Below are positions 11,598-46,273 of a stretch of 46,501 bases of DNA, one piece after another; positions within the stretch are counted from its first letter, which is position 1; each line of letters starts with the position of its first letter. This DNA is from Candidatus Magasanikiibacteriota bacterium. GTDB taxonomy: Bacteria; Patescibacteriota; Patescibacteriia; Magasanikbacterales; GWA2-37-8. The notes beneath the pieces were generated by a model that searched no databases, had not been told where the DNA came from, and saw only the letters and a program-made list of their open reading frames with translations. The stretch is from assembly GCA_016234265.1 (NCBI GenBank), contig JACRFW010000027.1, forward strand, positions 1 through 46,501. Reading direction: 5' to 3'. Position numbers and translations under genes: made by a program.

Positions 11598-12595
11598 CCC
11601 ACCCGATTTTGTATTTTCCCCTGAGCGAAGGAAGTTATATTATCAACCGTCACATTGATAATGCGCTCCAGCGCCTCGGCGCTGTTAAACGCATTGTGCG
11701 GCGTGACAATGGTGTTCGGGTGATCAATGAGCAGGTTATTCACGAGCGTCGTTTTCAGCTTGAATTCAGTGTTGCCGTGGCGCATTACTTCTTCAAAGTT
11801 CTGTAACAAATTTTCATCTTCCAGAACATCCAGACCGGCACCGGCGAGCCGGCCGGAATTGAGCGCCGCCAAGAGCGCTTCAGCGTCCACGATGCCGCCG
11901 CGCGCGGTATTGATGAGGAGCGCCCCCGGTTTCATGAGCGCGAGGTTCTTTTTGTTGATGAGATGATAGGTAGCCGGAAAGAGCGGCGCGTGGATGGTGA
12001 CAATATCGGATTTTTTAAGCAGCGCCGGAAGCGCCACATAGGTGAAGCCAAGCGTTTGGGCGAGCGCCGGGTTTGGTTTGGCATCGTAGGCCAGTACTGC
12101 CATTTCAAAACCCTTAGCCATGCGCGCTACGTTGGCCCCGATATGGCCGGTGCCGATAACGCCGAGCGTCTTGCCTTTGATATCCATCCCGCGCAAACCG
12201 CGAAAATCATAGCGGCCCTCTTTCACACGCTTCACCGATTCAAACAGTTTGCGGGTGAGCCCTAAAATGAGCGCGAAAGCATGTTCGGCCACCGTGTTTT
12301 CGCCATAGGTAGGCACATTAGACACGGGGATCTGACGTTTTTTTGCCGCCCCCAGATCAATATGATCATAGCCCGTGCTCATGGTGGTGATATATCTGAG
12401 CTTCGGCAGGCGCGCCATAATGTCTTTTGTCGCCGCTGACTCAATAAACACCACCAATACTTCGGCGGTGGGATCGGCCGACACGGGCGTGAGAGCGCTG
12501 GTATGAATAGCGTGCGGAAAGCCGCGCAATTTAGCGCGGGCATAGTCTTTTAACTCTGGCCACAGATTATACACGACCACTTTTGGTTTTAGCAT
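11594..12595 (-). CDS. D-isomer-specific 2-hydroxyacid dehydrogenase (D-LDH / PGDH family)
   Basis: NAD-binding GxGxxG at GVIGTGHIGANVARMA, plus catalytic-region conservation. The start was trimmed to MLKPKVVVY. Confidence 0.85.
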   Translation of the reverse strand: MLKPKVVVYNLWPELKDYARAKLRGFPHAIHTSALTPVSADPTAEVLVVFIESAATKDIMARLPKLRYITTMSTGYDHIDLGAAKKRQIPVSNVPTYGENTVAEHAFALILGLTRKLFESVKRVKEGRYDFRGLRGMDIKGKTLGVIGTGHIGANVARMAKGFEMAVLAYDAKPNPALAQTLGFTYVALPALLKKSDIVTIHAPLFPATYHLINKKNLALMKPGALLINTARGGIVDAEALLAALNSGRLAGAGLDVLEDENLLQNFEEVMRHGNTEFKLKTTLVNNLLIDHPNTIVTPHNAFNSAEALERIINVTVDNITSFAQGKIQNRVG

Positions 12596-12609
12596 AAAAA
12601 AATACTTAC

Positions 12610-18007: not shown

Positions 18008-18045
18008 ACTCGTACTTTTTTAAAAAATGAATAAAGACCTGCTGA

Positions 18046-18093
18046 TACTATACCTAGTGATATAAAAGTATCCTATTCCACTAGGTATAGTGT
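18046..18093. promoter_or_regulatory. Tandem NrdR-box-like operators (two 16-bp palindromic boxes, centres about 32 bp apart) in the nrdD promoter
   Basis: On the minus strand the boxes read ACACTATACCTAGTGG and TCACTAGGTATAGTAT, against the consensus acaCwAtATaTwGtgt. The arms form a perfect 13-bp inverted repeat with each other. They overlap the TGgTATACT extended -10. Confidence 0.5.
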
Positions 18094-18193
18094 TATAGAT
18101 AGTATACCACAAAATGAAAAAAAGAGTTATCCACAAGGTCATTCAACCTTGCGGGCAGCTCATCTGACCAGGCGAGTGGCCCGCGCGGACGGA

Positions 18194-18589
18194 CTACATG
18201 AAAAAATGATAGACCACCCGATAGGCGGCAATAAGCAAGAGCCAGTAGATAGAATGCTCCAGATCAATAAGGCCGCGGTAATTAAACCGGCCACCACGAT
18301 ATCTCCATAGGCGCCGCTTCAAAACGGCCAGCATAACCAGGCCGGAAACCAGCTCCAAAAGAACGGCCAGGATGGCGCCAAACAGCACCTGCAGAACGGC
18401 CGGCAGTGGAGTATACACAAAGACCACGTCCAGCACCACCGCGCCCACGCCATAAATAATTGAAAAGAATGGGATGAGCGTGCCGGGCGCGTAGCGCTTG
18501 TCCGCATAAAACCGAAAGCCGGTATCCAAAATCCAGCCTAAAAAACCACCAAAGATAAAGATATAAAGATAATAGAACGGGGTAGTCAT
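18194..18589 (-). CDS. Hypothetical integral membrane protein (131 aa, 4 TM)
   Basis: Hydrophobic helices only. It is the first gene of the nrd operon on the minus strand. Confidence 0.55.
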   Translation of the reverse strand: MTTPFYYLYIFIFGGFLGWILDTGFRFYADKRYAPGTLIPFFSIIYGVGAVVLDVVFVYTPLPAVLQVLFGAILAVLLELVSGLVMLAVLKRRLWRYRGGRFNYRGLIDLEHSIYWLLLIAAYRVVYHFFM

Positions 18590-18763
18590 AAGTGAGCGGT
18601 ACTATACCAGCTCTTTAAACAAAAAACCAGCCCCGATCTATCGGGACTGGCTACAGGGATACGCGTTGGAAGAAGTAGCGTATCACAAATTGAGATTAGT
18701 ATATCAGATGGGGTAGTTCTTGTCAAAGTTTGCCGGCCGAATTAAATGTGGATAACTTTATTT

Positions 18764-18792
18764 TTGATTTTCGGGAAATTTTCGGGTATAAT
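18764..18792 (+). promoter_or_regulatory. Sigma70 promoter (TTGATT, 17 nt, TATAAT) for the LexA-methyltransferase gene, with a 9-bp direct repeat ATTTTCGGG x2 in the spacer
   Basis: tTTGATTttcgggaaattttcgggTATAAT lies about 40 nt upstream of the ATG. Confidence 0.6.
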
Positions 18793-18832
18793 ATAACTAC
18801 CTAAAATCACCCCAAAATAAGTTCAACGAAAT

Positions 18833-20359
18833 ATGCAATCGCCAACCAGAAAACAGAAGGAGGTTTTGGATTTTATAACTTCTTACATAAATAAGCACAG
18901 CATATCCCCCACCATTGAGGAAGTGGCGAGGCGCCTTAAACGCGCGATTGGCACAATACACGAACATATGGAAGAACTGGCGGAAAAGGGATTAATCAAA
19001 AAAAATAATTCTGCTCGTGGTGTTGAAGTTGTGCAAAATGATAGTTTAATCAAAATACCATTACTCGGAACCATAGCGGCGGGTCAGCCCATAGAAGCAA
19101 TTAAAGAAAGAGAGGCCATAGCCGTACCCCAAAGTAAACTGCCTAACTCCGGTAATTTCTATGCCCTGAAAGTAGTCGGTAATAGCATGACTGAAGAGAA
19201 TATCAACGATGGCGACGTTGTGCTAGTCAAACAGCAGAGCGCAGCTGATAACGGACAAAGGGTTGTGGCCTTAATTGATAATTACGAAACTACATTAAAA
19301 AAAATGTACAAAGAAAAAAGGCATATCAGGCTGCAACCGGCCAACAAAACAATGAGCCCCATAATTATTTCTAGACAAACTCCGTTCGCGATACAAGGCA
19401 TCGTGATTGATGTGATAAAAAATGATGAGAATGCCTTTTTAGAAGAACCAATTACATCAAGAAAAATCAAAAGAAATACTGCGCTGCCTTTAAACCAAAT
19501 TATTTTAAATGATGCAACTGAAGAGCTACGGAAGCTTCCGAATGAAAGTTGCGATGTCGTCATAATTGATCCACCATATAATATCGGCAAGGATTTTGGA
19601 AACAACATTGATAAACGAGAGCTGAACGAATACATCGCATGGTGCAAAGAATGGATCGGCGAAAGTATCCGAACAATGAAACCGACGGGGACAATGTTTA
19701 TTTACGGTTTCAGTGAAATTCTTGCTCATCTTTCTGTTGAAATCCCCATAAACAAACGCTGGCTTATCTGGCACTACACAAATAAAAATGTCGCCTCTCT
19801 TAATTTTTGGCAGAGAAGCCATGAAGCAATTATCTGTGCCTGGAAAGATAAGCCGGTTTTCAATAGAGACGAGGTCAGAGAGCCATACACGGAAGGATTT
19901 TTGAACGGGGCGGCTGGTAAAATAAGAAAAGGAACAGTTGGTAGATTTAGCAAGGGTGGATTAGAAACTATCTACAAGGCGCACGAGGGCGGCGCTTTGC
20001 CAAGAGATGTTATAAAAATACCAGCCCTGGCTGGAGGGGCTGGTATGAATGAAAGGTGGTTTATTTGTAAAACTTGCGGAGGAAATATTTTTGAGCCGAG
20101 AGAACTTAAAAAACACATCGACCACAAAATTATTAAACACCCGACACAAAAACCGCTGGAGCTATGTAGGAAATTGATCAGATCATCGGCGCCCAAGAAA
20201 GATGGGGTGGTTCTAGTGCCTTTTGTCGGCACAGGAGCCGAATGCGCGGCCGCAAAAGAATTAAATCAAAACTATATCGGTTTTGAGATTAATCCTGACT
20301 ATGTGAAGATCGCTGAAAAAACCATTTCTTCTGTAAAGGTGACACCAAAATTATTTTAG
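18833..20359 (+). CDS. Fusion protein: LexA-like repressor (winged HTH plus S24 self-cleaving peptidase) fused to a beta-class N6A/N4C DNA methyltransferase
   Basis: N-terminus: HTH, the Ala-Gly cleavage site GTIAAGQPIEA, the Ser in GNSM and the Lys in TLKKMY. C-terminus: DPPY (motif IV) in VVIIDPPYNIG, HPTQKP, and FxGxG (motif I) in PFVGTGAECAAAKEL. It is a single uninterrupted ORF. Confidence 0.85.
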   Translation: MQSPTRKQKEVLDFITSYINKHSISPTIEEVARRLKRAIGTIHEHMEELAEKGLIKKNNSARGVEVVQNDSLIKIPLLGTIAAGQPIEAIKEREAIAVPQSKLPNSGNFYALKVVGNSMTEENINDGDVVLVKQQSAADNGQRVVALIDNYETTLKKMYKEKRHIRLQPANKTMSPIIISRQTPFAIQGIVIDVIKNDENAFLEEPITSRKIKRNTALPLNQIILNDATEELRKLPNESCDVVIIDPPYNIGKDFGNNIDKRELNEYIAWCKEWIGESIRTMKPTGTMFIYGFSEILAHLSVEIPINKRWLIWHYTNKNVASLNFWQRSHEAIICAWKDKPVFNRDEVREPYTEGFLNGAAGKIRKGTVGRFSKGGLETIYKAHEGGALPRDVIKIPALAGGAGMNERWFICKTCGGNIFEPRELKKHIDHKIIKHPTQKPLELCRKLIRSSAPKKDGVVLVPFVGTGAECAAAKELNQNYIGFEINPDYVKIAEKTISSVKVTPKLF

Positions 20360-21046
20360 TCCGGCGTCAATCTCTTTTTTCTTGGCCTCAAAAATATGAG
20401 GAGTGAAAACAACAAAACCATTCGGAAGTCTCCTTAGCTCCTTATTATCTTGGAATCTCTTGTACGGCAATTTAAATTCCCCGTTCTTCTTCTTTGGATT
20501 TTTGAAGTAATCGCCGCTCGGAACCTCATACTTAATGTCCACAAACTCCCCTGGTAGCGGATTTTTTGATTTGGGTTTTTCCTGTCGCACCTCTCTGCCA
20601 AGAGATTTCTTCTTAACCTGATAATTTAAAATTTTACCCAGATATTTGACTTGAAAGTCAGCTCCTTTGTGATCAAGCTCACCAGACATCTCTACTGTTC
20701 CATCACCAAAAACGGATTCGGCAACGTACCCAGCGTGAATTTGCGTAATGATGCTCGCCCATGTTCTGTAAATTCTTGCAGGCAAACCTTTACCAAAACA
20801 TGTTTTGCACATCCCAGTTTTTTCTTGAAAGTTACTAATCTCTTTCTTATATTCTTGCAAATATTCCTCGTAAAACTTTTCGAAACTCAAAAATTTCTTC
20901 TTTTCCCAATATACCTTGTACAGCATATTGATAGCTTGAATCTCCTTGGGCAAGTCCATTTCCACAATTTTAATAGACCGATATTTGTCACGGTAGGCCT
21001 CCAGATCAACCGACTGTAAAAAATTCCCAAATTCACCTAATAACAT
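20351..21046 (-). CDS. Hypothetical protein, possibly a PD-(D/E)xK restriction endonuclease partner of the adjacent methyltransferase
   Basis: Convergent with the MTase, overlapping its 3' end by 9 nt. It carries a GD...x10...DHK arrangement (FGDGTVEMSGELDHK). No other homology is recognisable by eye. Confidence 0.5.
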   Translation of the reverse strand: MLLGEFGNFLQSVDLEAYRDKYRSIKIVEMDLPKEIQAINMLYKVYWEKKKFLSFEKFYEEYLQEYKKEISNFQEKTGMCKTCFGKGLPARIYRTWASIITQIHAGYVAESVFGDGTVEMSGELDHKGADFQVKYLGKILNYQVKKKSLGREVRQEKPKSKNPLPGEFVDIKYEVPSGDYFKNPKKKNGEFKLPYKRFQDNKELRRLPNGFVVFTPHIFEAKKKEIDAGLK

Positions 21047-22138: not shown

Positions 22139-23506
22139 CTATTTTAAATGCGACATAATATCGTCGGGACGATCAATAAATTTCAAGAATGACTCGTCAA
22201 TCTGACTGATGGTTTTGAATTTCACATTTAAATTATGAACAATATCAATCAGCGGTTGCCAGAACTCCCGCCCGTAAAGAATAATGGGCAGCGGTTCTAT
22301 TTTTTTCGTTTCTTGGAGCGTCAGCAATTCAAAAAGCTGATGGAGCGTGCCAAAACCGCCGGGGAAAAAAACAAAGGCCTCGGACGGGGCGGTGATAATG
22401 AGCTTGCGCACAAAGGGGAAAGAGAAGCTGATTGATCTGGTCAAGTAGTTATTCACCCGTTCATGTCCTTTAAAATGCACATTGATGCCGATGCTCTCCC
22501 CCCCATTCTCAAACGCGCCTTTGTTGGCGGCCTCCATAATGCCCGGGCCGCCGCCGGTAATAACCATGTGTTTGCTCTTAGCGAGTACCGCCCCCAGTTC
22601 GTTGGCGGCTTGATAATATGCTGAACCCGGGAGCACGCTCTTGGTGCCAAGCACCGTGACATCATGTTTAACTTTCGTCAAAAATTCAAATCCTTCCACC
22701 AATTCAGCCATGATGCGGAACACCCGCCAATCGGCGGCCCCCTCAAAATACAACGGACCGTTGGCCACTCCCCAGACATCAGAGTTATCGGTCGTATCTT
22801 TTATAAAGGAGAAAGCTTCTTCAGCCGTTTCCACCATGTGCCAGTCGGCAATATCTTTCTCGGACAACGAGTGCGCGAGCGCGATTGATTTTTGCTTTAA
22901 GAAATCCACAATCGGCTGCCAATATTCCCGACCGACCAGCACAATCGGAGTTTTTTCCATGAACCCCAGCTCCATGTAGTCCACCACTTCAAAAAACTCA
23001 TCCAGCGTGCCAAAGCCGCCGGGGAAAAAAACAAAAGCGTTGCCCGGGCTGGTCAGCATCACCTTGCGCGTGAAGAAATAATAGAAAGCGGTGGCTTTTT
23101 TGACGTAAGGGTTGATGCGCTGTTCAAAGGGCAGCTGAATGTTGAGGCCCACCGACTCGCCGCCGACTTCAAACGCGCCTTTGTTGGCGGCCTCCATAAT
23201 GCCCGGGCCGCCGCCGGTAATAGTGGTGAAGCCATGTTTGCCAAGTAACCGCCCGAGTTCCACGGCGACTTTGTAATATTTTTCATTGGGCGAAATGCGG
23301 GCCGAGCCGAGGACCACCACTTCTTTTTTTAGTTCGCTCAAAAATTGATAGCCTTCCACGATTTCGGTGACGATCCGAAAAATGCGCCAGGAATCGCGAT
23401 AGTTCACGGCGGCGCCAGTGGTATGAAAATGCGAGTCCGCAAGGGTTTTACCAGAAGAAACAGCCGAGGCGGGAGTGGCTGGTTGGCGCGTGGTTTTTTT
23501 GGGCAT
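22139..23506 (-). CDS. Tandem-duplicated LOG family protein (two TIGR00730-like cytokinin riboside 5'-monophosphate phosphoribohydrolase domains)
   Basis: The GGGPGIMEAANKGA motif occurs twice, with the PGGxGTxxE motif in each half. Confidence 0.85.
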   Translation of the reverse strand: MPKKTTRQPATPASAVSSGKTLADSHFHTTGAAVNYRDSWRIFRIVTEIVEGYQFLSELKKEVVVLGSARISPNEKYYKVAVELGRLLGKHGFTTITGGGPGIMEAANKGAFEVGGESVGLNIQLPFEQRINPYVKKATAFYYFFTRKVMLTSPGNAFVFFPGGFGTLDEFFEVVDYMELGFMEKTPIVLVGREYWQPIVDFLKQKSIALAHSLSEKDIADWHMVETAEEAFSFIKDTTDNSDVWGVANGPLYFEGAADWRVFRIMAELVEGFEFLTKVKHDVTVLGTKSVLPGSAYYQAANELGAVLAKSKHMVITGGGPGIMEAANKGAFENGGESIGINVHFKGHERVNNYLTRSISFSFPFVRKLIITAPSEAFVFFPGGFGTLHQLFELLTLQETKKIEPLPIILYGREFWQPLIDIVHNLNVKFKTISQIDESFLKFIDRPDDIMSHLK

Positions 23507-31291: not shown

Positions 31292-32590
31292 TTATGGCTT
31301 GTTCATCCAGCTTTCTTCCTGCCGCACCAGAAGAGTAGCTGCTTCCAGCGGCTCGGCCATCACCTCTTTGACAATTTTCTCCATGCGCGAACCTTGGGAG
31401 CCTTTCACCAAAATAATATCGCCCGTGTTTAATTGTTCCTGTAAAAATTTTCCGGCGGCAGCCGAGTTATCAAAACGGGCAATGCGGTGTTCCTCAAATC
31501 CGGCCTCGCGGGCCGCGGCGGCCGTAATTTTTGAGGCCTCCCCGACCGTAATGAGAAAATCAATGCCAAGCTCGGCTACTTTGAAACCAATTTCGCGGTG
31601 CGCGGTTTCGGTTTCCGGGCCCAGCTCCAGCATATCGCCCAAGACAGCGTAGCGCTCGGAGCCCGCGGGCACGGGAATGCTCGCGAGCGTATCCAGGGCC
31701 GCCTTGGCCGCGACCGGGCTGGAATTGTAGGTATCATCAATGAGGAGGGTATTTTTAATGCCAGAGAGCAGGCGCAGGTGCCCCGGCAAAGAAACAAACT
31801 GCCGCAAAGACTCCGCAGCTTCAACCAAATTTATACCAAAAATACTTCCGACCGCGATGGCGGCGAGAGCTGACGGAATAAGGCTCTCACTCAAAGCGCC
31901 GGGTAAAAATACCGGCACAATATTTCCTTTGTAGTGAACTTTAAAATTCAAGCCCGTTGGTCGGAAGCCCGAAGCGTCGCATAGCACGTTCACGTCAGTC
32001 GCCCGAATGGCCGCGCCTTCCTTCAATCCATAGGTTAAAACTTCCGCCTTGGTAGCGCCCGCCTCCTCCATCACCAACTCATTATCAAAATTCAAAACGG
32101 CAAAACCATCGCGCCGGAGATGCGAGATGATAATTCTTTTTTCCTGGGCGATTTTTTTAATGGTTTTAAAAAATTCAGTATGCGCGTGCGAAATGGCGGT
32201 GAGCACTCCCACGGTGCACGGCGCCATTTCGGTGAGATATTGAATGTCCCCGGGTCGGTCGGCGCCCATTTCTAACACGAGCGTTTTTGGATAGTTGGCA
32301 TCGCGAACAATGAGTAAACGCAAAGCTTGGGCAAAAACCATAAACCAACCGAGAATTGAATGGCCGGGAGTTTTGGCCACGCCAATAATGGTCAGCGGCA
32401 CGCCGACCTGGTTGTTATAATTTTTGGCGCTGGCGCGAACGTCAAAACGTGATTCCAACACCATACGAATAGCCTCTTTGGCCGAGGTCTTCCCCACCGA
32501 CCCGGTAATGCCAATCACATCAGGATGATATTTTCTAATAATGGCCGAAGAGAACTTTTTAAGAAAATAGTGCAATATAGAAATAAGCAT
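31292..32590 (-). CDS. murF: UDP-N-acetylmuramoyl-tripeptide--D-alanyl-D-alanine ligase
   Basis: Mur ligase P-loop GITGSVGKTSAKE and the MurF-type LIDDTYNSSP motif. Confidence 0.85.
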   Translation of the reverse strand: MLISILHYFLKKFSSAIIRKYHPDVIGITGSVGKTSAKEAIRMVLESRFDVRASAKNYNNQVGVPLTIIGVAKTPGHSILGWFMVFAQALRLLIVRDANYPKTLVLEMGADRPGDIQYLTEMAPCTVGVLTAISHAHTEFFKTIKKIAQEKRIIISHLRRDGFAVLNFDNELVMEEAGATKAEVLTYGLKEGAAIRATDVNVLCDASGFRPTGLNFKVHYKGNIVPVFLPGALSESLIPSALAAIAVGSIFGINLVEAAESLRQFVSLPGHLRLLSGIKNTLLIDDTYNSSPVAAKAALDTLASIPVPAGSERYAVLGDMLELGPETETAHREIGFKVAELGIDFLITVGEASKITAAAAREAGFEEHRIARFDNSAAAGKFLQEQLNTGDIILVKGSQGSRMEKIVKEVMAEPLEAATLLVRQEESWMNKP

Positions 32591-32591
32591 A

Positions 32592-34388
32592 TTAGCGGTC
32601 GCCGGGTATGGCGTAATAATTTAAAGCAAATTGCATCACATCTTTAAAAACTGGCAAAGCGGTCTGTTCCGCCCACTTGCGCTCGGGCTCTTCGTATTTT
32701 ACCACCAAAACGAGCGCCGGGTCAGCGGCCGGAGCAAAACCGGCAAAGGTGTGGTTGGTGCGATTATCGCTATAGACACCGCGTTCGGCGATCTGCGCCG
32801 TGCCAGTTTTTCCGACGACATAATAGGTATTAATTTTGGCTGCCTTATAGTGATTTTCCACCACCGAAACGAGCATGGCGCCAAGGAGTTTGGCGGCATG
32901 CTCGGAGATAACCTGCTCCACCACCATGGGCGTCGCGGTTTCTTTTTCGCCGCCCGGATAGCGCACCTGATCAACGACATACGGCTTCATGAGTTTCCCG
33001 CCATTCGCAATGGCGGCATAACCGGCCGCCACCTGGAGTGCGGTGGCGGTGAGACCCTGTCCAAATGAACCGTTAGCGCCGAAAATTTCCCCTTTCTTTT
33101 TGAGCGAACTCACGTCGCCGCTCACTTCGGTGTTGAGAGCAATGCCGGTCTTATCGCCAAATCCAAATTTTTCAATGTACTGACGAAATTTGTCGGCTCC
33201 CACCTTTTCTTCCACCCACACGGCACCGGTATTGATGGATTTCTCCAGCACTTCCGTCATCGTTTGCTCGCCATAGCAGGACTGCATGGCGTTGCGCACA
33301 TGAAAACCATTGATTATCCGCTCACAGGGATCAGTATAGGTGGTATTGGGAGTAACCAAGCCGAGATCAAGCCCGGCACCCATGGTAAAGGCTTTAAAAA
33401 CCGATCCCGGTTCATAGGCGGTAAAAATGGCAGTATTGTTATAGACCGAGAGATCGTCTGCTTTGGAATAATTATTCGGGTCGTAATCCGGCAGGCTGCA
33501 CATAGCGAGAATCGCCCCGGTCTTCGGGTTCATCAGCACCAGAGCGGCGCTTTTCGCGTTATAATCTTTCAGACCCTGGCGTAAACGCTCACAGGCCGCG
33601 CTTTCCACCGCGCGGTCAATCGTTAAAACCAGGTCAGCGCCATTTTCCGAGGGCACCGTCGTGCGATCAGCGAGCGAAATCCAACTGCCGAGCGCGCCCT
33701 TTTCACCCATCGTGAACCCGCCCTTGCCGGCCAACTTCTTTTCCCAATACCCTTCAATGCCGTAGCGGCCGACAATATTGCCGGCTGAGTCGGAACCAGT
33801 AAAACCGAGCACGGCTCCGGCCAGCGCGCCTTCCGGGTAGTAGCGCATACTCACGCCGGTGGCATAGATCCCTTTCAAAGTGGCGGCCGTGAGACGGTCG
33901 GCAACGTCTGAGGGAACTTTTTTAGCGATCACCGCATATGAATCTGAGTGGTTGGAGAGTTTTGCTAGTGTGGTCTTCTGCTCCTCGGGTGTCTGGCCAA
34001 GCAGCGCTCCCACCTGCACGCTCGTGGTGGCTGTTTCCTCCGGAGAAATTTCCCGCGGATTCGCGTAGACAATGAAAAATTCTTTATTCACTGCCGCCGG
34101 GTATTCAATTTTCGTACGGGAGTCCTTAAAATAAATTCGCCCGCGGTCAGGGTGCAGCCTTTGATAAATTTCGTGGGAATTGAGGGCGAACAAGGCATAA
34201 TAGTCGTGCTGAACAATCTGGAGCATGAACAACCGAACGACAATCCAGATGGCGAGCACTAAAAAAAAGATGGCCACCACGCGCACGCGCGAGCGGTCAT
34301 CAATGGCCTGTGTTGACTTGTGATACATTCTCATACTTCTGCCGCTAGTATACCTTTTTTTCGCTCTCCGAGCAACAAAAAAGCCCAC
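32592..34388 (-). CDS. ftsI: Penicillin-binding protein 2 / FtsI-type transpeptidase
   Basis: N-terminal TM, SxxK (EPGSVFK), SxN (KSINTGA) and KTG (VVGKTGTAQ). Confidence 0.9.
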   Translation of the reverse strand: MGFFVARRAKKRYTSGRSMRMYHKSTQAIDDRSRVRVVAIFFLVLAIWIVVRLFMLQIVQHDYYALFALNSHEIYQRLHPDRGRIYFKDSRTKIEYPAAVNKEFFIVYANPREISPEETATTSVQVGALLGQTPEEQKTTLAKLSNHSDSYAVIAKKVPSDVADRLTAATLKGIYATGVSMRYYPEGALAGAVLGFTGSDSAGNIVGRYGIEGYWEKKLAGKGGFTMGEKGALGSWISLADRTTVPSENGADLVLTIDRAVESAACERLRQGLKDYNAKSAALVLMNPKTGAILAMCSLPDYDPNNYSKADDLSVYNNTAIFTAYEPGSVFKAFTMGAGLDLGLVTPNTTYTDPCERIINGFHVRNAMQSCYGEQTMTEVLEKSINTGAVWVEEKVGADKFRQYIEKFGFGDKTGIALNTEVSGDVSSLKKKGEIFGANGSFGQGLTATALQVAAGYAAIANGGKLMKPYVVDQVRYPGGEKETATPMVVEQVISEHAAKLLGAMLVSVVENHYKAAKINTYYVVGKTGTAQIAERGVYSDNRTNHTFAGFAPAADPALVLVVKYEEPERKWAEQTALPVFKDVMQFALNYYAIPGDR

Positions 34389-41693: not shown

Positions 41694-42047
41694 CTAACCG
41701 CGGTATTCTTTATTATTACGCGACGCTATCTGGCGTCGCTTTTTTGTATTTTGAAGTTTTACCTTATGCTTTTTCAGTTCGCGCTCCAGTTGATCTTTGA
41801 GCAGATCAATGGCAGCATAGACGTCTTTGGCGGTTTTTTTGGCAAAAATATCGTTGCCAGAAATTTCTACTTTGCATTCAGCGTAGAATATCTTCCCTTT
41901 CAGATGGTGCTTGGTCTCCACACCCACCACCACCGTTGCCCGGATAATGCCCGGAGAAAATTTATCCAGACCATTTATTTTTCGGCTGACGTAATTTTCT
42001 ATCGCATCTGTCAAATCTACTCCTTTCCCAGAAATTATAATCTGCAT
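41694..42047 (-). CDS. hpf: Ribosome hibernation-promoting factor (HPF/RaiA short form)
   Basis: MQIIISGKGVDLTDAIENYV... is typical of the YfiA/HPF N-terminal domain. Confidence 0.88.
   Translation of the reverse strand: MQIIISGKGVDLTDAIENYVSRKINGLDKFSPGIIRATVVVGVETKHHLKGKIFYAECKVEISGNDIFAKKTAKDVYAAIDLLKDQLERELKKHKVKLQNTKKRRQIASRNNKEYRG
41720..41746 (+). terminator. Intrinsic terminator of the suf-ferredoxin operon (GCGACGC-TATCTG-GCGTCGC plus TTTTTT), embedded in the C-terminal codons of convergent hpf
   Basis: A 7-bp GC-rich stem followed by a T6 run. Confidence 0.7.
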
Positions 42048-42077: not shown

Positions 42078-43016
42078 TTACTTAACTATTTGGACCTCCT
42101 CCTCCAGCTCAACTCCACTAGTATTATACACCTTGGCCTTTATCTCTTCAACTAGGGCCAAGACATCGGCCTGGGTGGCGTCTTTATGGTTAATAAGAAA
42201 ATTGCCGTGCTCACGGGATACCATGGCCCCGCCGACGGCTAGGCCTTTGAGGCCTGCTTGCTCCGTTATCCAACCGGCAGGCACGCGGCCGGCCTCTACA
42301 AACGCTGCCGGTAACTCTGACGTCGGGTGCGGCCAGTCTTTGAGCGGAATATTTTTAAAAAAACTGCCAGCGGACGGGTAGGACGGATAATGCCCAGCGC
42401 GTTTTTTGAGAATTTCCTGCATGACAGCCAGGCTCTCGCGCGGGTTGCCGGGAGAGAGCGTAAACCAGGCCGCGAGCACAACCGTGGTGGAGCGTTTGAA
42501 CATACTGTCCCGATAACCAAAAGCACAATCGTCTGGCGTGAGCTCAACGATTTCGCTGTCCTGCCAAATTTTTATTTTTGAAACCGAGTGAGCAATATCA
42601 CCACCCACCGCTCCGGCGTTGCCGCGCACGGCGCCGCCAACAGTGCCGGGCAAGCCTGTTGCCCACTCCAAACCGGTGAGCGACTGCTGAACCGCTTTGG
42701 TTACGACGGCGCCAAACGAGACTCCGGCTTCGGCCATAATCATGTTCCCGTCCACCGTCATTTTGTTGGTCTTCACGCGGATAACCACACCGCGGAGACC
42801 GTTGTCCGGCAGGAGCACGTTTGACCCACCACCGAGCAAAAAATAATCTACGCCTCGACCGGAGAGAAAATTAAGCAGGTCGGTGAACTTTTTTGTGTCT
42901 GTTACTTCAACATAACGATCGGCTGGGCCGCCGATTTTAAATGTCGTAAACTTAGCCAAAAATTTGCGTAGGCTAACATCACCAAATTGCTGTAATTCCT
43001 TATACAAACTGTCCAT
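42078..43016 (-). CDS. murB: UDP-N-acetylenolpyruvoylglucosamine reductase
   Basis: FAD-binding TFKIGGPADRYVEV...LLGGGSNVLL. Confidence 0.9.
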   Translation of the reverse strand: MDSLYKELQQFGDVSLRKFLAKFTTFKIGGPADRYVEVTDTKKFTDLLNFLSGRGVDYFLLGGGSNVLLPDNGLRGVVIRVKTNKMTVDGNMIMAEAGVSFGAVVTKAVQQSLTGLEWATGLPGTVGGAVRGNAGAVGGDIAHSVSKIKIWQDSEIVELTPDDCAFGYRDSMFKRSTTVVLAAWFTLSPGNPRESLAVMQEILKKRAGHYPSYPSAGSFFKNIPLKDWPHPTSELPAAFVEAGRVPAGWITEQAGLKGLAVGGAMVSREHGNFLINHKDATQADVLALVEEIKAKVYNTSGVELEEEVQIVK

Positions 43017-43026
43017 ACAAGTAACC

Positions 43027-43055
43027 TTGTCAAAATGAGATTTTTTTAGTATACT
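43027..43055 (+). promoter_or_regulatory. Sigma70 promoter (TTGTCA, 17 nt, TATACT) giving a near-leaderless ATP-grasp transcript
   Basis: cTTGTCAaaatgagatttttttagTATACTttgtcaatATG. Confidence 0.5.
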
Positions 43056-43063
43056 TTGTCAAT

Positions 43064-44377
43064 ATGACTGGCAATTCTTTAACCTTTCTTCGGGGGCCTG
43101 TAGTGTACGTCTGCCGGGACATGGAACGAGCCCTGGGCCTACCACTTTCCACACAGAATTACTTCATCATAACAAACTCCAGCGCTTTTGCGAAGAGTGT
43201 AGCCGCGAAGAACAGAAACATCCTCCTGATCGTTGAAAACGCGCCTCTGGATACGCGCGACCTCTTGGCTCACCCCAAAACAGCCGCGTGGCTGAATAGG
43301 TTGCCCAATCCAAAAATTTTGGTCTTTAAAAATACTACTCAAATAGAAAAACTGTGCCGAGATAAAGGGTGGCAGCTCCTGAACCCGCCCGCGGAACTGG
43401 CCAAACGAGTGGAGGAAAAGATTTCCCAGCTCACTTGGCTCGGCCCCCTCCAAAAATATTTACCGCCACATAAAGTTATGCTCTGCAAAGATCTGGAATG
43501 GTCCAAAAAAAAACTTGCCCGGCACCGAACCGGAGGTTCCGGTGCTGGGTATATCGTGCAATTCAACCATGCGCACACGGGGCTTGGCACCATACTCATC
43601 AATTCGGCTCAATCGCTGGTTGAACTGAAGAAAAAATTTCCTAAGCGCAGTGTCCGCGTCACGGATTTTGTCAGCGGGCCGGCATTGACCAACAACAACG
43701 TCGTGTGGGGAAAACACGTGCTGATTGGAAACATCAATTACCAAATAACTGGATTAGCACCATTCACTAAGAGCCCATTTACTACCGTTGGTAATGATTG
43801 GGCACTGCCGAAGCACCTTATGCAGAGTAAACAAATTAGGCGGTTTAAGCAGATAGCTACCAACGTCGGGAAAAAGCTAGCCAAAGACGGCTGGCGCGGA
43901 CTATTTGGCATTGATACTATTTTGGATGAAAAAACCGACAAGCTGTACCTCATTGAGATCAATGCGCGACAGCCAGCATCAACGACGTTTGAATCACAAT
44001 TACAAGAAAACAAAAAAACAATAAAGCAAAAAAATAACGCAACGACGTTTGAAGCGCATTTGGCGGCATTACTGGGCCTTCCTTACAAAAAACAAAAACT
44101 AATTGCCATAACAGACGGAGCGCAGATTATACAGAGAATACCGAATACCGAACAACAAATATTAAATACCGAATACCGAATACCGAATCACAAACGACTA
44201 GCAAAAAGAATTAACGGATTAAAAGATTGCAAGATTATTGAATACGAAAATACCACCCCGGGGAGTGACTGGCTACGCATTCAGAGTAAAGCGGGTATTA
44301 TGGCCGGGCATAACAAGTTTAATAAGTTGGGAAAAAATATTCAAAATGACACCTACTATGTTATCACCAAAAGCTGA
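43064..44377 (+). CDS. ATP-grasp domain protein (D-Ala-D-Ala ligase-like C-terminal fold) with a repeat-containing C-terminal extension
   Basis: Gly-rich TGGSGAGYIV and GLFGIDTILDEKTDKLYLIEINARQPAST (compare the Ddl region RVDF..edg..YlnEvNT.PG.T). The C-terminus contains a TTFE duplication and a heptanucleotide SSR. Confidence 0.75.
   Translation: MTGNSLTFLRGPVVYVCRDMERALGLPLSTQNYFIITNSSAFAKSVAAKNRNILLIVENAPLDTRDLLAHPKTAAWLNRLPNPKILVFKNTTQIEKLCRDKGWQLLNPPAELAKRVEEKISQLTWLGPLQKYLPPHKVMLCKDLEWSKKKLARHRTGGSGAGYIVQFNHAHTGLGTILINSAQSLVELKKKFPKRSVRVTDFVSGPALTNNNVVWGKHVLIGNINYQITGLAPFTKSPFTTVGNDWALPKHLMQSKQIRRFKQIATNVGKKLAKDGWRGLFGIDTILDEKTDKLYLIEINARQPASTTFESQLQENKKTIKQKNNATTFEAHLAALLGLPYKKQKLIAITDGAQIIQRIPNTEQQILNTEYRIPNHKRLAKRINGLKDCKIIEYENTTPGSDWLRIQSKAGIMAGHNKFNKLGKNIQNDTYYVITKS
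44138..44186 (+). repeat. Heptanucleotide tandem repeat (ATACCGA)2, 14 nt degenerate, then (ATACCGA)3, inside the ATP-grasp coding region
   Basis: Read directly from the sequence. It encodes ...RIPNTEQQILNTEYRIPNH. Confidence 0.85.
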
Positions 44378-45164
44378 ACAAGTTATCCACGATTATCTCA
44401 ACCTTCCTTTCAAGGGAATCCCGGGCGCGCGAGCCCCCTATTTTAACAATGCCCGGCAAAGAGAGCGCGGGCAGCTGCGTGTACTCGTGGGCAAAGGCAC
44501 CCCCCAAGAAATTGTGGAAGAAGCAAAAATCATTTCCATCCAATACCACGCCGGCCTGTTTGATAAACAGGGTGACTGTTGCCTGCACAATGCCCATACC
44601 GGCAAACCGGTGACCCCCGACGACCTGCGCCGGTTCCTCATTGACCATAGTTTAGGCATTGAATGCTCAGGATTTGTCACCCAGGTGCTCCGAGCTCATT
44701 ACCGGGAAACGAAGGGCTTTGACTTTGTGAAAAAAATTACCGCCACTCCTCGGGCCGAAATTGTCCGTCGCCTGATTGCCTGGCTTCGGCCGGTGGAAAA
44801 TATCAATGTTGCCACCTACGCGAATGATGAGAACAGCACGCTCGTTCGAGGCTATGAGGAAATCAAGCCGGGCGACCTTGTTATCATGCTCAAGACGGGG
44901 CCACGCCAGGAACACGACCATATTCTGCTGATAACAGACGTACAGGGGAAAACGATTCACTACGCCCAGGCCCGGGCCTGGAGCCGCGAGGGAAAATACG
45001 ACCACGGCGTGGCGCGCGGCACCATTTCTATTACCCACCCCACCGAGAGCCTCTTGAAACAGGATTGGCAAGAATTGGGATACAATGGGGATGGTAATGA
45101 GACCTACATTGAAGCGAAACAGGCCAACACCCTGTGCATCAAACGATTACGCCTCAACACATGA
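44346..45164 (+). CDS. Cytoplasmic NlpC/P60-family cysteine peptidase/amidase
   Basis: Nucleophile motif ECSGFV, then PGDLVIML...EHDHILLITDV...TIHYAQA (His/His). There is no signal peptide. Its start overlaps the ATP-grasp 3' end. Confidence 0.75.
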   Translation: MTPTMLSPKAEQVIHDYLNLPFKGIPGARAPYFNNARQRERGQLRVLVGKGTPQEIVEEAKIISIQYHAGLFDKQGDCCLHNAHTGKPVTPDDLRRFLIDHSLGIECSGFVTQVLRAHYRETKGFDFVKKITATPRAEIVRRLIAWLRPVENINVATYANDENSTLVRGYEEIKPGDLVIMLKTGPRQEHDHILLITDVQGKTIHYAQARAWSREGKYDHGVARGTISITHPTESLLKQDWQELGYNGDGNETYIEAKQANTLCIKRLRLNT

Positions 45165-46273
45165 ACTTCCAACCGCTCCAACAATCACTCGTCTACTTGA
45201 TCGGATCAACAATCGCCGCTTTTTTGTGGGCACCGCTCCTCACGAAGTTTTTATATAAATATAACATCACCCGCCGGGGTGAGTTTGACCCGACGTTGCA
45301 GGGAGAGCGCCGGCATAAAGCCGGCACCCCCACCATGGGCGGGCTTTTGGTTATCGTGACGGTCACTGTCATTACCGTACTTTTCAATTGGCAACGTCGC
45401 TACACCTATGTACCGATTGGCGCTATGGGCATTGCGGCGCTCTTGGGGGCGGCGGACGATCTCTTGAATATCTTCGGCACCAAACGCCGCTTGCGCAATG
45501 TGCGCCACACCATCATCCTCATGAAAGTGCACAAACGTTGGTATATGAAACTGTGGTACGCGCTTACCATTCCCTGGATAGGGTTTCGTGATTTGGTAAG
45601 TATGTTTGGGTCTAAACAAGGGCGGGGCATTCAGGTACATGAAAAATTACTACTCCAATTTGGAGCGGGAGCGGTGACGGCCTGGTGGGTGTACGTGAAG
45701 CTCGGCGCCAGCTGGCAGACGATCAACTTTCCTTTTGACGGCAGTCTATACTTGGGGTGGTTTATCATTCCGGTGATTATTTTCTTTGTGATGTTTACGG
45801 CCAACGCGGTGAATGTGGCCGATGGCATGGACGGCCTGGCGGGCGGGTCGCTCATCGCGGCTTTCCTTGGCCTCACGGTCGTGAGCTGGGTGGAGGGACG
45901 CACGGCCTTTGCCCCACTGAACGCGACGGTGGTCGGGGCGCTCCTCGCCTACACCTACTTTAACGTCAAACCGGCCCGCTTCCAGATGGGGGACGTTGGC
46001 TCCCTTGGTCTCGGCACGCTGCTCGCTATCAACGCTATCGCTCTCAACAAAACATTGCTTATCCCCTTCTTCGGTTTTATTTTTTATGTGGAAATATTTT
46101 CCGTTATCCTGCAAGTTTTGAGCCGCCGCTTGTTTGGCCGACGGCTGTTCAAAATGTCCCCGCTGCACCATCACTTTGAAATTATGGGCTGGAACGAAGA
46201 AAAAGTCGTGATGCGTTTCTGGATTATTCAGGCTTTTATGGTGATGGTCGGCGTGTGGCTGGCGCTAAATTAA
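45161..46273 (+). CDS. mraY: Phospho-N-acetylmuramoyl-pentapeptide transferase
   Basis: NAVNVADGMDGLAGG and a multi-TM topology. Its start overlaps the preceding stop (ATGA). Confidence 0.93.
   Translation: MNFQPLQQSLVYLIGSTIAAFLWAPLLTKFLYKYNITRRGEFDPTLQGERRHKAGTPTMGGLLVIVTVTVITVLFNWQRRYTYVPIGAMGIAALLGAADDLLNIFGTKRRLRNVRHTIILMKVHKRWYMKLWYALTIPWIGFRDLVSMFGSKQGRGIQVHEKLLLQFGAGAVTAWWVYVKLGASWQTINFPFDGSLYLGWFIIPVIIFFVMFTANAVNVADGMDGLAGGSLIAAFLGLTVVSWVEGRTAFAPLNATVVGALLAYTYFNVKPARFQMGDVGSLGLGTLLAINAIALNKTLLIPFFGFIFYVEIFSVILQVLSRRLFGRRLFKMSPLHHHFEIMGWNEEKVVMRFWIIQAFMVMVGVWLALN

What the first reader, a model, noticed from the sequence alone, without database searches (positions are those of the whole stretch)
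43064..45164. Overlapping ATP-grasp (Ddl-like) ligase and cytoplasmic NlpC/P60 amidase wedged between murB and mraY: candidate amide-bond making and breaking pair acting on peptidoglycan precursors
- The 437-aa protein has an ATP-grasp C-terminal signature close to that of D-Ala-D-Ala ligase (GIDTILDEKTDKLYLIEINARQPAST).
- Its N-terminal half is unrelated to Ddl, and it has a repeat-containing tail.
- The downstream gene overlaps its 3' end. It encodes an NlpC/P60 enzyme with an intact Cys (ECSGFV) and His/His (EHDHILL...TIHYAQA) and no export signal.
- The combination of an ATP-grasp ligase with a papain-fold amidase mirrors glutathionylspermidine synthetase/amidase and the peptide-ligase/peptidase pairs described by comparative genomics.
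- Its position inside the murein precursor gene neighbourhood suggests synthesis and trimming of a non-canonical stem-peptide or cytoplasmic peptide conjugate.
Basis: partly seen in the sequence, partly recalled or inferred. Interest (0 to 1): 0.6.

Follow-up and report, generated by a model that had tools for sequence, protein, structure and literature searches.

The report
Ligase–amidase pair in murein operon
An ATP-dependent enzyme that makes amide bonds and a cysteine enzyme that breaks them sit tightly coupled in the core cell-wall-precursor operon of a whole order of ultra-small (CPR) bacteria, travel with a small carrier-like protein, and probably form an undescribed route that supplies or edits a cell-wall building block.

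Summary
Bases 43064-44377 encode a 437-aa ATP-grasp enzyme. Bases 44358-45164 (true start, 20-nt overlap) encode a 268-aa cytoplasmic NlpC/P60 cysteine hydrolase. Both lie between murB and mraY on a Candidatus Magasanikbacteria contig.

The two genes are coupled:
- The hydrolase follows the ligase in 76 of 77 species genomes.
- 321 species genomes carry the ligase.
- 26 of the 150 best P60 cluster representatives are full ligase-P60 fusions.

New here: the pair travels with a threonine-synthase-like PLP enzyme and a 54-aa LysW-like zinc-ribbon protein whose acidic C-terminus always ends E-x-K. In divergent lineages the order becomes LysW-like | PLP enzyme - ligase - P60 - mraY. Some ligases carry a NUDIX or an SbnI-like domain.

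Best reading (0.4): the ligase loads and P60 unloads an amino acid on this carrier, feeding murein-precursor synthesis. Main rival (0.25): direct make/break on UDP-MurNAc-peptide. I could not test whether a canonical ddl exists elsewhere in the genome. Novelty: new variant of a known kind. Interest 0.62.

The parts
41694..42047 (-). Ribosome hibernation factor (HPF/S30AE) gene, the conserved upstream neighbour of murB. It is context, not part of the module.
   Evidence: ORF. PF02482 at the same position in L001, L003 and L004. Present in 64 of 80 loci.
42078..43016 (-). murB (UDP-N-acetylmuramate dehydrogenase), transcribed divergently from the ligase gene.
   Evidence: NF010480 at 273.5 bits (cut-off 259), plus MurB_C and FAD_binding_4. 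Divergent neighbour in 68 of 73 loci that have room for it.
43027..43055 (+). Promoter-like site TTGTCA-17-TATACT, ending 8 nt before the ligase ATG. If used, the mRNA would be nearly leaderless.
   Evidence: Best + strand match in the region (10 of 12 positions); sequence. This is a consensus match only. The number of such sites in the region does not exceed the shuffled controls.
43064..44377 (+). ATP-grasp carboxylate-amine ligase, 437 aa, with a four-domain PurK / biotin carboxylase / L-amino-acid-ligase-like architecture.
43955..43969 (+). Codons for E298-I-N300-A-R302, the Mg/acyl-phosphate motif of the ligase (E-x-N-x-R, the biotin carboxylase/PurK/Lal type).
   Evidence: E298, N300 and R302 are invariant in 38 sequences. 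In the homologue-to-DdlB alignment, the position of the Ddl-specific Arg (GRID) is Gly (G282, 'FGID' in this protein).
44358..45164 (+). Cytoplasmic NlpC/P60-fold cysteine amidohydrolase, 268 aa: a novel, highly conserved N-terminal helical domain of about 95 aa followed by the P60 core. It overlaps the ligase gene by 20 nt.
44664..44666 (+). Codon of the catalytic Cys103, in the G-I-E-C-S-G-F motif.
   Evidence: Invariant C103, S104, G105 and F106 in 33 sequences. The (D/E)CSGF motif is also kept in the divergent fusion protein of L116.
44919..44969 (+). Codons from His188 (catalytic His, DHILL) to residue 204, the third triad position (Gln here, His in at least 90% of homologues).
   Evidence: H188 invariant and H204 nearly invariant in alignment A2.
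45161..46273 (+). mraY. Its likely ATG overlaps the P60 stop codon (ATGA), which suggests translational coupling.
   Evidence: TIGR00445 at 192.5 bits. Junction sequence. mraY lies within 120 bp of the P60 gene in 29 of 54 loci and within 3 kb in 46 of 54.

Best explanation
The two genes are the ligase and the hydrolase of a lineage-specific, four-part cytoplasmic module attached to the murein-precursor operon. The parts are:
- the ATP-grasp ligase;
- the NlpC/P60 amidohydrolase;
- a 54-aa LysW-like zinc-ribbon carrier protein with an acidic tail that always ends E-x-K-COOH;
- a threonine-synthase-like PLP enzyme.

The last two are encoded just beyond the end of this contig in relatives.

Proposed mechanism. 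This follows the logic of the LysW/LysX/LysK amino-group-carrier pathway and of CysO/CysM/Mec+.
1. The ATP-grasp enzyme spends ATP to form an acyl phosphate and joins an amino-acid substrate to the carrier's C-terminal tail by an amide bond.
2. The PLP enzyme modifies the tethered substrate, probably with a phospho-amino acid such as O-phosphoserine.
3. The NlpC/P60 enzyme hydrolyses the amide, releasing the product and regenerating the carrier.
4. The product is a building block of the murein stem peptide or its cross-bridge, used by the neighbouring MurC and Mur ligases before MraY acts.

Shown: the folds, the catalytic motifs, the cytoplasmic location, the coupling and fusion of the ligase and P60, and the co-travel of the four genes with mraY through rearrangements.

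Inferred: that the carrier is the common substrate, the order of the steps, the nature of the product, and its use in murein.
For: 1. Physical and functional coupling of ligase and P60.
- The genes overlap by 20 nt here.
- The gap is 10 nt or less, or an overlap, in 46 of 72 relatives. P60 is present in 76 of 77 loci.
- Full-length ligase-P60 fusions occur in 5 of 80 species genomes and in 26 of the 150 best cluster representatives found by an exhaustive profile search.

2. A LysW-like protein belongs to the same conserved cluster.
- It is about 54 aa, with a CPEC...ECxxCG zinc ribbon, a PF21344 match, and the LysW carriers 5k2m_E and 3wwl_A as its two best PDB matches.
- Its tail is invariant: DEGK in 43 of 43 loci and in 117 of 120 database hits.
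- It has 1565 database hits, against 1669 for the ligase.

3. The association survives rearrangement.
- Main type: murB | ligase - P60 - mraY - X - murC | LysW-like | PLP enzyme.
- Two divergent lineages, about 30-33% identical to the window proteins: LysW-like | PLP enzyme - ligase - P60 - mraY. In L116/L117 the ligase and P60 are fused and start 9 bp after the PLP gene. In L119 they are separate.
- The tails there are EEDK and EEEK, so Glu at -2 and the terminal Lys are kept.

4. In known pathways, LysW-type carriers are loaded by an ATP-grasp ligase and unloaded by an amide hydrolase. The cluster holds exactly one of each and no RimK/LysX-type enzyme.

5. Some ligases carry a C-terminal ParB/Srx-like domain. 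Its only significant matches are to SbnI, the free serine kinase that makes O-phosphoserine for the PLP enzyme SbnA (NCBIfam E = 2e-6, PDB E = 2e-4). The cluster's PLP enzyme is closest to threonine synthase, which uses a phospho-amino acid.

7. The charges are complementary: pI 10.0 for the ligase, 8.8 for P60 and 4.3 for the carrier.

8. The murein link is conserved. mraY, murC, murB and a Fem/arginyltransferase-like gene are the constant neighbours.
Against: - There is no biochemical data. The carrier link rests on gene order within one clade and its divergent relatives.
- The carrier ends in Lys. It lacks the C-terminal Glu whose gamma-carboxyl is the attachment site in LysW.
- In the main arrangement the carrier gene lies 5-7 kb from the pair, on the other strand. 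In about 8 of 54 genomes the pair is separated from the mraY-murC-LysW-PLP block.
- The LysW matches are weak (NCBIfam 22.8 bits against a cut-off of 75; PDB E about 0.01).
- The SbnI-like domain is found in only 2 of 80 species, and the match covers only about 60 residues.
- The commoner NUDIX fusion (15 of 80) is not explained by this model.
- The Lys that contacts ATP in Ddl (K144) aligns with an invariant Gln (Q166).
- The window itself does not contain the carrier or the PLP gene, because the contig ends 228 bp after mraY.
Confidence: 0.4

Rival explanations
1. Direct make-and-break on the nucleotide precursor, with the logic of glutathionylspermidine synthetase/amidase or of the D-aspartate ligase Aslfm. 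The ligase adds a residue or cap to UDP-MurNAc-peptide, for example on the lysine epsilon-amine or the D-Glu alpha-carboxyl. The P60 enzyme removes it, or cleaves a gamma-D-Glu-diamino-acid bond. The stem peptide is thereby edited before MraY acts.
For: - The pair sits between murB and mraY, and the P60 stop overlaps the mraY start.
- NUDIX domains, which hydrolyse nucleoside-diphosphate-X compounds, are fused to the ligase in 15 of 80 species, or are encoded between the two genes or elsewhere in the cluster, with an intact NUDIX box. This would suit a UDP-linked substrate.
- Fusion of a ligase with a papain-fold amidase is known from GspSA.
Against: - It leaves the LysW-like protein, the PLP enzyme and the SbnI-like fusion unexplained, although these stay with the pair through rearrangement.
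- There is no detectable similarity to Gsp synthetase.
- No UDP-binding feature was identified.
Confidence: 0.25
2. Non-orthologous replacement of Ddl. The ATP-grasp enzyme makes the D-Ala-D-Ala (or D-Ala-D-X) dipeptide that MurF needs. The PLP enzyme could be the racemase.
For: - MurF is present in the window (31292-32590, TIGR01143 at 279 bits).
- No canonical Ddl was found in the window or within 10 kb of the cluster in any of 85 loci.
- The ligase's structural neighbours include dipeptide-forming L-amino-acid ligases.
- The pair seems near-universal in the order (321 species), as expected of a core function.
Against: - The rest of the genome could not be searched for ddl, so the premise is untested.
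- A dipeptide ligase has no obvious need for an obligately coupled or fused NlpC/P60 hydrolase or for a carrier-like protein.
- There is no Ddl-type Arg in the GRID motif, no Ddl model match and no BLASTP similarity.
Confidence: 0.1
3. Salvage of foreign murein peptides. The P60 enzyme trims imported stem peptides in the cytoplasm, as YkfC, MpaA and LdcA do. The ligase rebuilds a usable peptide, which the MurC/Mpl-like ligase then loads on UDP-MurNAc.
For: - CPR bacteria lack most amino-acid biosynthesis (general knowledge).
- The cluster's 'murC' scores below the curated cut-offs of both murC (271 against 335) and mpl (233 against 389).
- P60 resembles the cytoplasmic and recycling gamma-D-Glu-diamino-acid peptidases 3h41 and 2evr.
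Against: - No transporter is conserved in the cluster.
- It does not explain the carrier-like protein or the PLP enzyme.
- A fused ligase and peptidase is not known from any recycling pathway.
Confidence: 0.1
4. Amidotransferase. The P60 enzyme acts as a glutaminase, attacking the gamma-glutamyl amide of glutamine. It passes ammonia to the ATP-grasp enzyme, which amidates a carboxylate of the precursor. This would be a functional analogue of MurT/GatD or of carbamoyl-phosphate synthetase.
For: - Obligate pairing and frequent fusion of a Cys-His hydrolase with an ATP-grasp synthetase is the hallmark of glutamine amidotransferases.
- NlpC/P60 enzymes form gamma-glutamyl thioesters (established chemistry of the family).
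Against: - The P60 core keeps the canonical (D/E)CSGF peptidase motif and resembles peptide hydrolases.
- No NlpC/P60 glutaminase subunit is known.
- It does not explain the carrier-like protein or the PLP enzyme.
Confidence: 0.07

Closest known systems
LysW / LysX / LysK amino-group carrier protein pathway (Thermus, archaea; AmCP systems of Streptomyces)
   Same: - A zinc-ribbon protein of about 54 aa with an acidic tail; LysW carriers are its best PDB and NCBIfam matches.
- One ATP-grasp ligase and one amide hydrolase encoded alongside it.
- The logic of tethering, modifying and then releasing an amino acid.
   Different: - The carrier ends E-x-K and lacks the EDWGE ending.
- The ligase is PurK/Lal/PylC-like rather than RimK/LysX-like.
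- The hydrolase is a cysteine NlpC/P60 enzyme rather than the M20 metallopeptidase LysK.
- There are no LysZ, LysY or LysJ genes.
- The partner is a threonine-synthase-like PLP enzyme.
- The module is embedded in murein genes of a CPR order.
Glutathionylspermidine synthetase/amidase (GspSA) and trypanothione synthetase-amidase
   Same: - An ATP-dependent amide ligase and a papain-fold cysteine amidase in one polypeptide or one operon.
- Cytoplasmic location.
   Different: - The domain order is reversed: ligase at the N-terminus, amidase at the C-terminus.
- No Gsp-synthetase family was among the ligase's Pfam hits.
- The gene context is different.
- It is not shown that both enzymes act on the same bond.
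CysO / CysM / Mec+ of Mycobacterium tuberculosis, and SbnA/SbnI of staphyloferrin B synthesis
   Same: - A fold-type-II PLP enzyme that uses O-phosphoserine works with a small carrier protein's C-terminus, and a peptidase releases the product (CysO system).
- An SbnI-like ParB/Srx domain is fused to some of the ligases.
   Different: - The carrier is a zinc ribbon and not a ubiquitin-like beta-grasp protein.
- Activation would be by an ATP-grasp enzyme and not by an adenylating enzyme.
- The hydrolase is NlpC/P60 and not JAMM.
- The PLP enzyme is closest to threonine synthase, not to CysM or SbnA.
PurK / biotin carboxylase / L-amino-acid ligases / PylC (structural neighbours of the ligase)
   Same: - A four-domain ATP-grasp architecture.
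- The E-x-N-x-R motif.
   Different: - Sequence identity is only 9-16%, and there is no sequence-level match to any PDB chain even with a profile.
- NCBIfam PRK06524 scores 65 bits against a cut-off of 684.
- An invariant Gln stands at the usual ATP-binding Lys position.
- CPR bacteria generally lack purine biosynthesis, so a PurK role is unlikely (general knowledge).
Murein DL-endopeptidases and LD-carboxypeptidases of the NlpC/P60 family (MepS, CwlO, LytE, YkfC-like)
   Same: - The fold.
- The (D/E)CSGF Cys motif and the His/His triad.
   Different: - No signal peptide.
- Fused to a cytoplasmic ATP-dependent enzyme in many lineages.
- An extra, highly conserved N-terminal domain of about 95 aa with no known relative.
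- No PF00877 match at threshold.

Membership tests
ATP-grasp superfamily | Three-domain ATP-grasp fold | tested here: met
ATP-grasp superfamily | Mg/phosphate-binding acidic-Asn motif (E-x-N) in the C-domain | tested here: met
   D284, E298, N300 and R302 are invariant in 38 sequences. EINAR is kept in the divergent fusion of L116.
ATP-grasp superfamily | Conserved ATP-contacting Lys in the strand before the glycine-rich loop (K144 of DdlB) | tested here: inconclusive
   The HMMER alignment of DdlB to a homologue places an invariant Gln there (Q166 in this protein). The alignment scores low, and nearby invariant Arg residues (R195, R198) might compensate.
[quoted passage not shown] | Match to Ddl family models or to a reference Ddl | tested here: not met
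   No bacterial Ddl model appears among the Pfam or NCBIfam hits. Only the archaeal Ddl_archaea model hits, at 20.8 bits against a cut-off of 500. BLASTP against E. coli DdlB gives E = 0.38.
[quoted passage not shown] | Ddl structures are the nearest structural neighbours, and the architecture is the three-domain Ddl type | tested here: not met
[quoted passage not shown] | Arg of the G-R-I-D motif (R255 of DdlB) that stabilises the transition state | tested here: not met
   The aligned position is Gly in the homologue that was aligned to DdlB, and corresponds to the invariant G282 of 'FGID' here. This rests on alignment only.
[quoted passage not shown] | It is the organism's only source of D-Ala-D-Ala | not testable with these tools
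   Only this 46.5-kb contig and flanks of 10 kb or less in relatives could be read. No Ddl was found in them.
NlpC/P60 (MEROPS C40) | Papain-like NlpC/P60 fold | tested here: met
NlpC/P60 (MEROPS C40) | Catalytic Cys in (D/E)CSGF, a His, and a third polar residue | tested here: met
   C103 and H188 are invariant. Position 204 is His in at least 90% of homologues and Gln here.
NlpC/P60 (MEROPS C40) | Match to PF00877 at the gathering score | tested here: not met
   No PF00877 hit. PF12671 Amidase_6 scores 18.2 bits against a cut-off of 23.2. There is only a 'faint' precomputed PF00877 hit on one homologue.
Glutathionylspermidine synthetase/amidase | N-terminal CHAP amidase followed by a C-terminal Gsp-synthetase domain | tested here: not met
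Glutathionylspermidine synthetase/amidase | The ligase and the amidase act on the same amide bond | not testable with these tools
   This requires enzymology.
LysW amino-group carrier system | Small zinc-ribbon carrier with an acidic C-terminal tail, encoded with the ligase | tested here: met
   Met in relatives, not in the window itself. Evidence: PF21344, CPEC..ECxxCG, pI 4.3, the same cluster in 34 of 46 loci with room for it, and direct adjacency in L116 and L119.
LysW amino-group carrier system | C-terminal Glu (EDWGE) whose gamma-carboxyl carries the substrate | tested here: not met
   The tails are DEGK, EEDK or EEEK. The terminal residue is always Lys.
LysW amino-group carrier system | LysX/ArgX (RimK-type) ligase, LysK (M20) hydrolase, and LysZ, LysY and LysJ | tested here: not met

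The most novel reading that the evidence does not exclude
The LysW-like protein is a scaffold that is genetically pre-loaded with lysine. Its acidic tail holds the terminal lysine by the alpha-amine, so only the epsilon-amine is free. The threonine-synthase-like PLP enzyme adds an aminoacrylate unit derived from O-phosphoserine to that amine. This builds a lysinoalanine-type diamino-dicarboxylic acid, a surrogate for meso-diaminopimelate. The NlpC/P60 enzyme clips the modified residue off. The ATP-grasp enzyme re-lysylates the truncated carrier. The product goes into the stem peptide. This would be a carrier-templated route to a non-canonical murein amino acid in bacteria that cannot make diaminopimelate.
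Probability: 0.08. Interest if true: 0.9.

Novelty: new variant of a known kind. Interest (0 to 1): 0.62.

Why it matters
- Every sequenced lineage of a CPR order seems to keep a ligase, a cysteine amidase, a carrier-like protein and a PLP enzyme inside its very small core cell-wall operon. None of these can be named from sequence.
- If they supply or edit a murein building block, the textbook pathway to the murein nucleotide precursor (UDP-MurNAc-pentapeptide) has an undescribed branch in a large part of the bacterial tree.
- Amino-group carrier proteins, so far known from lysine, arginine and secondary-metabolite synthesis, would gain a role in the cell wall.
- The module is small and soluble, so it can be tested directly with recombinant proteins without culturing the organism.
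- It also gives a concrete handle on how ultra-small episymbionts with almost no amino-acid biosynthesis obtain the unusual residues of their wall.

Tried and rejected
1. Canonical Ddl: rejected on sequence, motif and fold.

2. Looking for a ddl elsewhere in the genome. This led nowhere.
- None in the window.
- None within 10 kb of the cluster in 85 loci, by phmmer with E. coli DdlB and the other dcw proteins.
- A metagenome scan anchored on a Magasanikbacteria FtsZ returned only 5 close loci, with no ddl.
- Five literature searches found nothing on Ddl or murein-precursor genes in Magasanikbacteria or Patescibacteria.

3. Sequence searches of the PDB, with single sequences and with profiles, gave nothing for either protein. 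Only fold comparison was informative.

4. The AlphaFold-database fold library (afdb50) was not available, so relatives such as Aslfm could not be compared.

5. MurL/MurD2, the alternative D-Glu route, was considered. MurL has no known domains and occurs in other phyla, so no link was found.

6. Iyer et al. 2009, on ATP-grasp amidoligases, is not held in the library.

7. A PurK or biotin carboxylase role was rejected on context (a murein operon, the P60 fusion) and on general knowledge that CPR bacteria lack purine and fatty-acid synthesis.

9. It is a variable, low-confidence loop.


Full report
**What is in the window.** The window is a whole 46,501-bp contig of a Candidatus Magasanikbacteria (CPR/Patescibacteria) MAG. 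The database copies of both proteins are 100% identical and come from a contig of that exact length. Around the finding the genes are:
- a ribosome hibernation factor, 41694-42047(-);
- murB, 42078-43016(-);
- the ATP-grasp gene, 43064-44377(+);
- the NlpC/P60-like gene, ending at 45164(+);
- mraY, running to 46273(+).

The contig ends 228 bp after mraY. MurF and a class B penicillin-binding protein lie 10 kb away (31292-34388). There is no canonical Ddl anywhere in the window.

**Checking the observation.**
- The P60 protein starts at ATG 44358 (MLSPKAEQ), as in all homologues and in the deposited annotation (268 aa). It does not start at the TTG of the mechanical ORF. The overlap with the ligase gene is therefore 20 nt.
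- Its stop codon overlaps an ATG of mraY (ATGA at 45161-45164). The three genes thus look translationally coupled.
- A TTGTCA-17-TATACT site ends 8 nt before the ligase ATG. This is a consensus match only.
- Cys103 (ECSGF) and His188 are invariant. The third triad residue is column 204, which is His in at least 90% of homologues and Gln here. It is not the His of 'TIHY'.
- Neither protein has a hydrophobic segment.

**The ligase is not a Ddl.**
- Pfam sees only a marginal ATP-grasp_3 match.
- The best NCBIfam match is 65 bits on a 'biotin carboxylase' model whose cut-off is 684. No bacterial Ddl model matches.
- BLASTP against E. coli DdlB finds nothing.
- phmmer with DdlB reaches homologues only at E about 1e-5 in a tiny database, over the generic core. 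In that alignment the Ddl-specific Arg of GRID is Gly, and the ATP-contacting Lys (K144) is an invariant Gln.
- No PDB chain matches by sequence, even with a profile.
- The 'unrelated N-terminal half' is a normal pre-ATP-grasp domain. The 'tail' is the fourth, PurK-like domain with one disordered, variable loop.

**The hydrolase is a genuine but very divergent NlpC/P60 enzyme.**
- Only about 120 of its 268 residues align. The first 95 or so residues form a highly conserved helical domain with no relative in Pfam or the PDB.

**The pair is a unit.**
- A scan of one genome per species found 321 species genomes with a relative of the ligase. Most records that name an organism say Magasanikbacteria or Patescibacteria. 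About half of the listed records are titled 'uncultured Gammaproteobacteria'; I take these titles to be placeholders on third-party assemblies.
- In the 80 best loci, the P60 gene follows the ligase in 76 of the 77 with room for it. The gap is 10 nt or less, or an overlap, in 46 of 72.
- murB is the divergent neighbour in 68 of 73.
- mraY follows within 3 kb in 46 of 54.
- Five of the 80 species have one full-length ligase-P60 fusion protein.
- An exhaustive profile search with the P60 family found 456 cluster representatives. Of the best 150, 26 are full fusions.

**What else travels with the pair.** The conserved cluster continues beyond where this contig ends: ligase - P60 - mraY - a protein of about 220 aa resembling an arginyltransferase (ATE_C) - a MurC/Mpl-like ligase - a 54-aa gene on the other strand - a PLP enzyme of about 299 aa.

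The 54-aa protein is LysW-like:
- It has a CPEC...ECxxCG zinc ribbon and matches Pfam PF21344.
- The two LysW carriers are its best PDB matches.
- It is acidic (pI 4.3).
- Its C-terminus is invariant: DEGK in 43 of 43 loci and in 117 of 120 database hits.
- It has 1565 database hits, close to the 1669 of the ligase.

The PLP enzyme is closest to threonine synthases.

**The decisive comparison** comes from divergent relatives, about 30-33% identical to the window proteins. In L116/L117 and in L119 the order is LysW-like(-) | PLP enzyme - ligase - P60 - mraY. The ligase and P60 are fused in the first case and separate in the second. murB and murC are no longer between the module's genes. The carrier tails there are EEDK and EEEK, so Glu at -2 and the terminal Lys are conserved. 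Four genes plus mraY staying together through rearrangement is the strongest evidence available here for a common function.

**Accessory domains.**
- In 15 of 80 species the ligase carries a C-terminal NUDIX domain with an intact catalytic box. In other genomes a NUDIX gene lies between the ligase and P60, or between murC and the carrier gene.
- In 2 of 80 species, and in four database clusters, the ligase instead carries a ParB/Srx-like domain. Its only significant matches are to SbnI, the free serine kinase that supplies O-phosphoserine to the PLP enzyme SbnA.
- The SbnI-like fusion ties the ligase to phospho-amino-acid PLP chemistry.
- The NUDIX association is unexplained.

**Best explanation and rivals.**

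*Carrier model (0.4).* In known pathways, LysW-type carriers are loaded by an ATP-grasp ligase and unloaded by an amide hydrolase. The cluster holds exactly one of each. I therefore take the ligase as the loader and P60 as the unloader of an amino acid tethered to the E-x-K tail, the PLP enzyme as the modifier, and the product as a building block for the stem peptide or its bridge.

What counts against it:
- The ligase is not LysX-like.
- The carrier ends in Lys, not Glu.
- The LysW matches are weak.
- The evidence is gene order within one clade.
- The NUDIX association does not fit.

*Rivals.*
- Direct action on UDP-MurNAc-peptide, with Gsp-like or Aslfm-like logic (0.25). The mraY coupling, the murein-hydrolase-like P60 core and the NUDIX association favour it.
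- Replacement of Ddl (0.10). The untested premise is that ddl is absent from the genome.
- Salvage of foreign stem peptides (0.10).
- A glutaminase-synthetase amidotransferase (0.07).

**Novelty.** I found no paper describing this pair, the K-terminal LysW-like protein, or any carrier protein in a murein operon. Both enzymes belong to known superfamilies, and ligase-amidase couples and carrier pathways are known kinds. I therefore call it a new variant of a known kind, with a small chance of something more unusual: carrier-templated synthesis of a non-canonical murein amino acid.

Noticed in passing
L003:13203-13367(-); L094:10001-10165; L116:705-872(-); L119:255-443(-); 43 loci in all: A LysW-like zinc-ribbon protein of about 54 aa. 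Its acidic tail always ends E-x-K (DEGK, EEDK or EEEK), whereas true LysW ends EDWGE. It lies divergently next to a threonine-synthase-like PLP enzyme in the same cluster as the ligase-P60 pair. It is not in the window, because the contig ends just after mraY.
   Followed up: yes
L094:14151-14570(-); C-terminus of P0091 and of 15 of 80 ligases; a family of about 185 aa in 13 loci at about +7 kb: A NUDIX hydrolase with an intact NUDIX box recurs in the cluster in three positions: fused to the ligase, between the ligase and P60, and between murC and the LysW-like gene. Its substrate and role are unknown.
   Followed up: partly
C-termini of P0039, P0044, P0045 and P0078; L016:781-2607; L021:9965-11629: Some ligases end in a ParB/Srx-like domain of about 125 aa (motif LDGLHR). 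Its only significant matches are to SbnI, the free L-serine kinase that makes O-phosphoserine.
   Followed up: partly
L003:11129-11785; a family of about 224 aa in 46 loci between mraY and murC; L116:5110-6129(-) is a FemAB protein: A protein resembling an arginyltransferase (ATE_C) sits between mraY and murC. In a divergent lineage a FemAB-family gene takes a neighbouring place. This suggests a tRNA-dependent branch on the stem peptide.
   Followed up: partly
window 45134-45164: The longest mraY ORF starts at GTG 45134. An ATG at 45161 overlaps the P60 stop codon (ATGA) and fits the N-termini of homologues, so it is probably the real start.
   Followed up: partly
window 18833-21046: One 508-aa protein combines a LexA DNA-binding domain, an S24 peptidase domain and an N6/N4 DNA methyltransferase domain. 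It is convergent with, and overlaps, a TaqI-like restriction endonuclease gene. The stretch has the lowest G+C in the window (0.427 at 18001-20000). This looks like a restriction-modification system whose methylase is fused to a LexA-type repressor.
   Followed up: no
window 22139-23506(-): A 455-aa protein with two LOG/SLOG-type domains in tandem (TIGR00730 family plus TIGR00725 / LDcluster4).
   Followed up: no
window 11594-12613(-): A D-2-hydroxyacid dehydrogenase with partial scores on VanH models (201 bits against a cut-off of 540). It is generic, but worth recalling if the ligase turned out to make a depsipeptide.
   Followed up: no
window 31292-34388(-): The penicillin-binding protein gene is followed directly by murF, with no murE between them, unlike the usual ftsI-murE-murF order. 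Where murE and murD lie in this genome is unknown.
   Followed up: no
window 43559-43561 (Q166 of the ligase): The residue aligned with the ATP-contacting Lys of Ddl (K144) is an invariant Gln in this family.
   Followed up: partly
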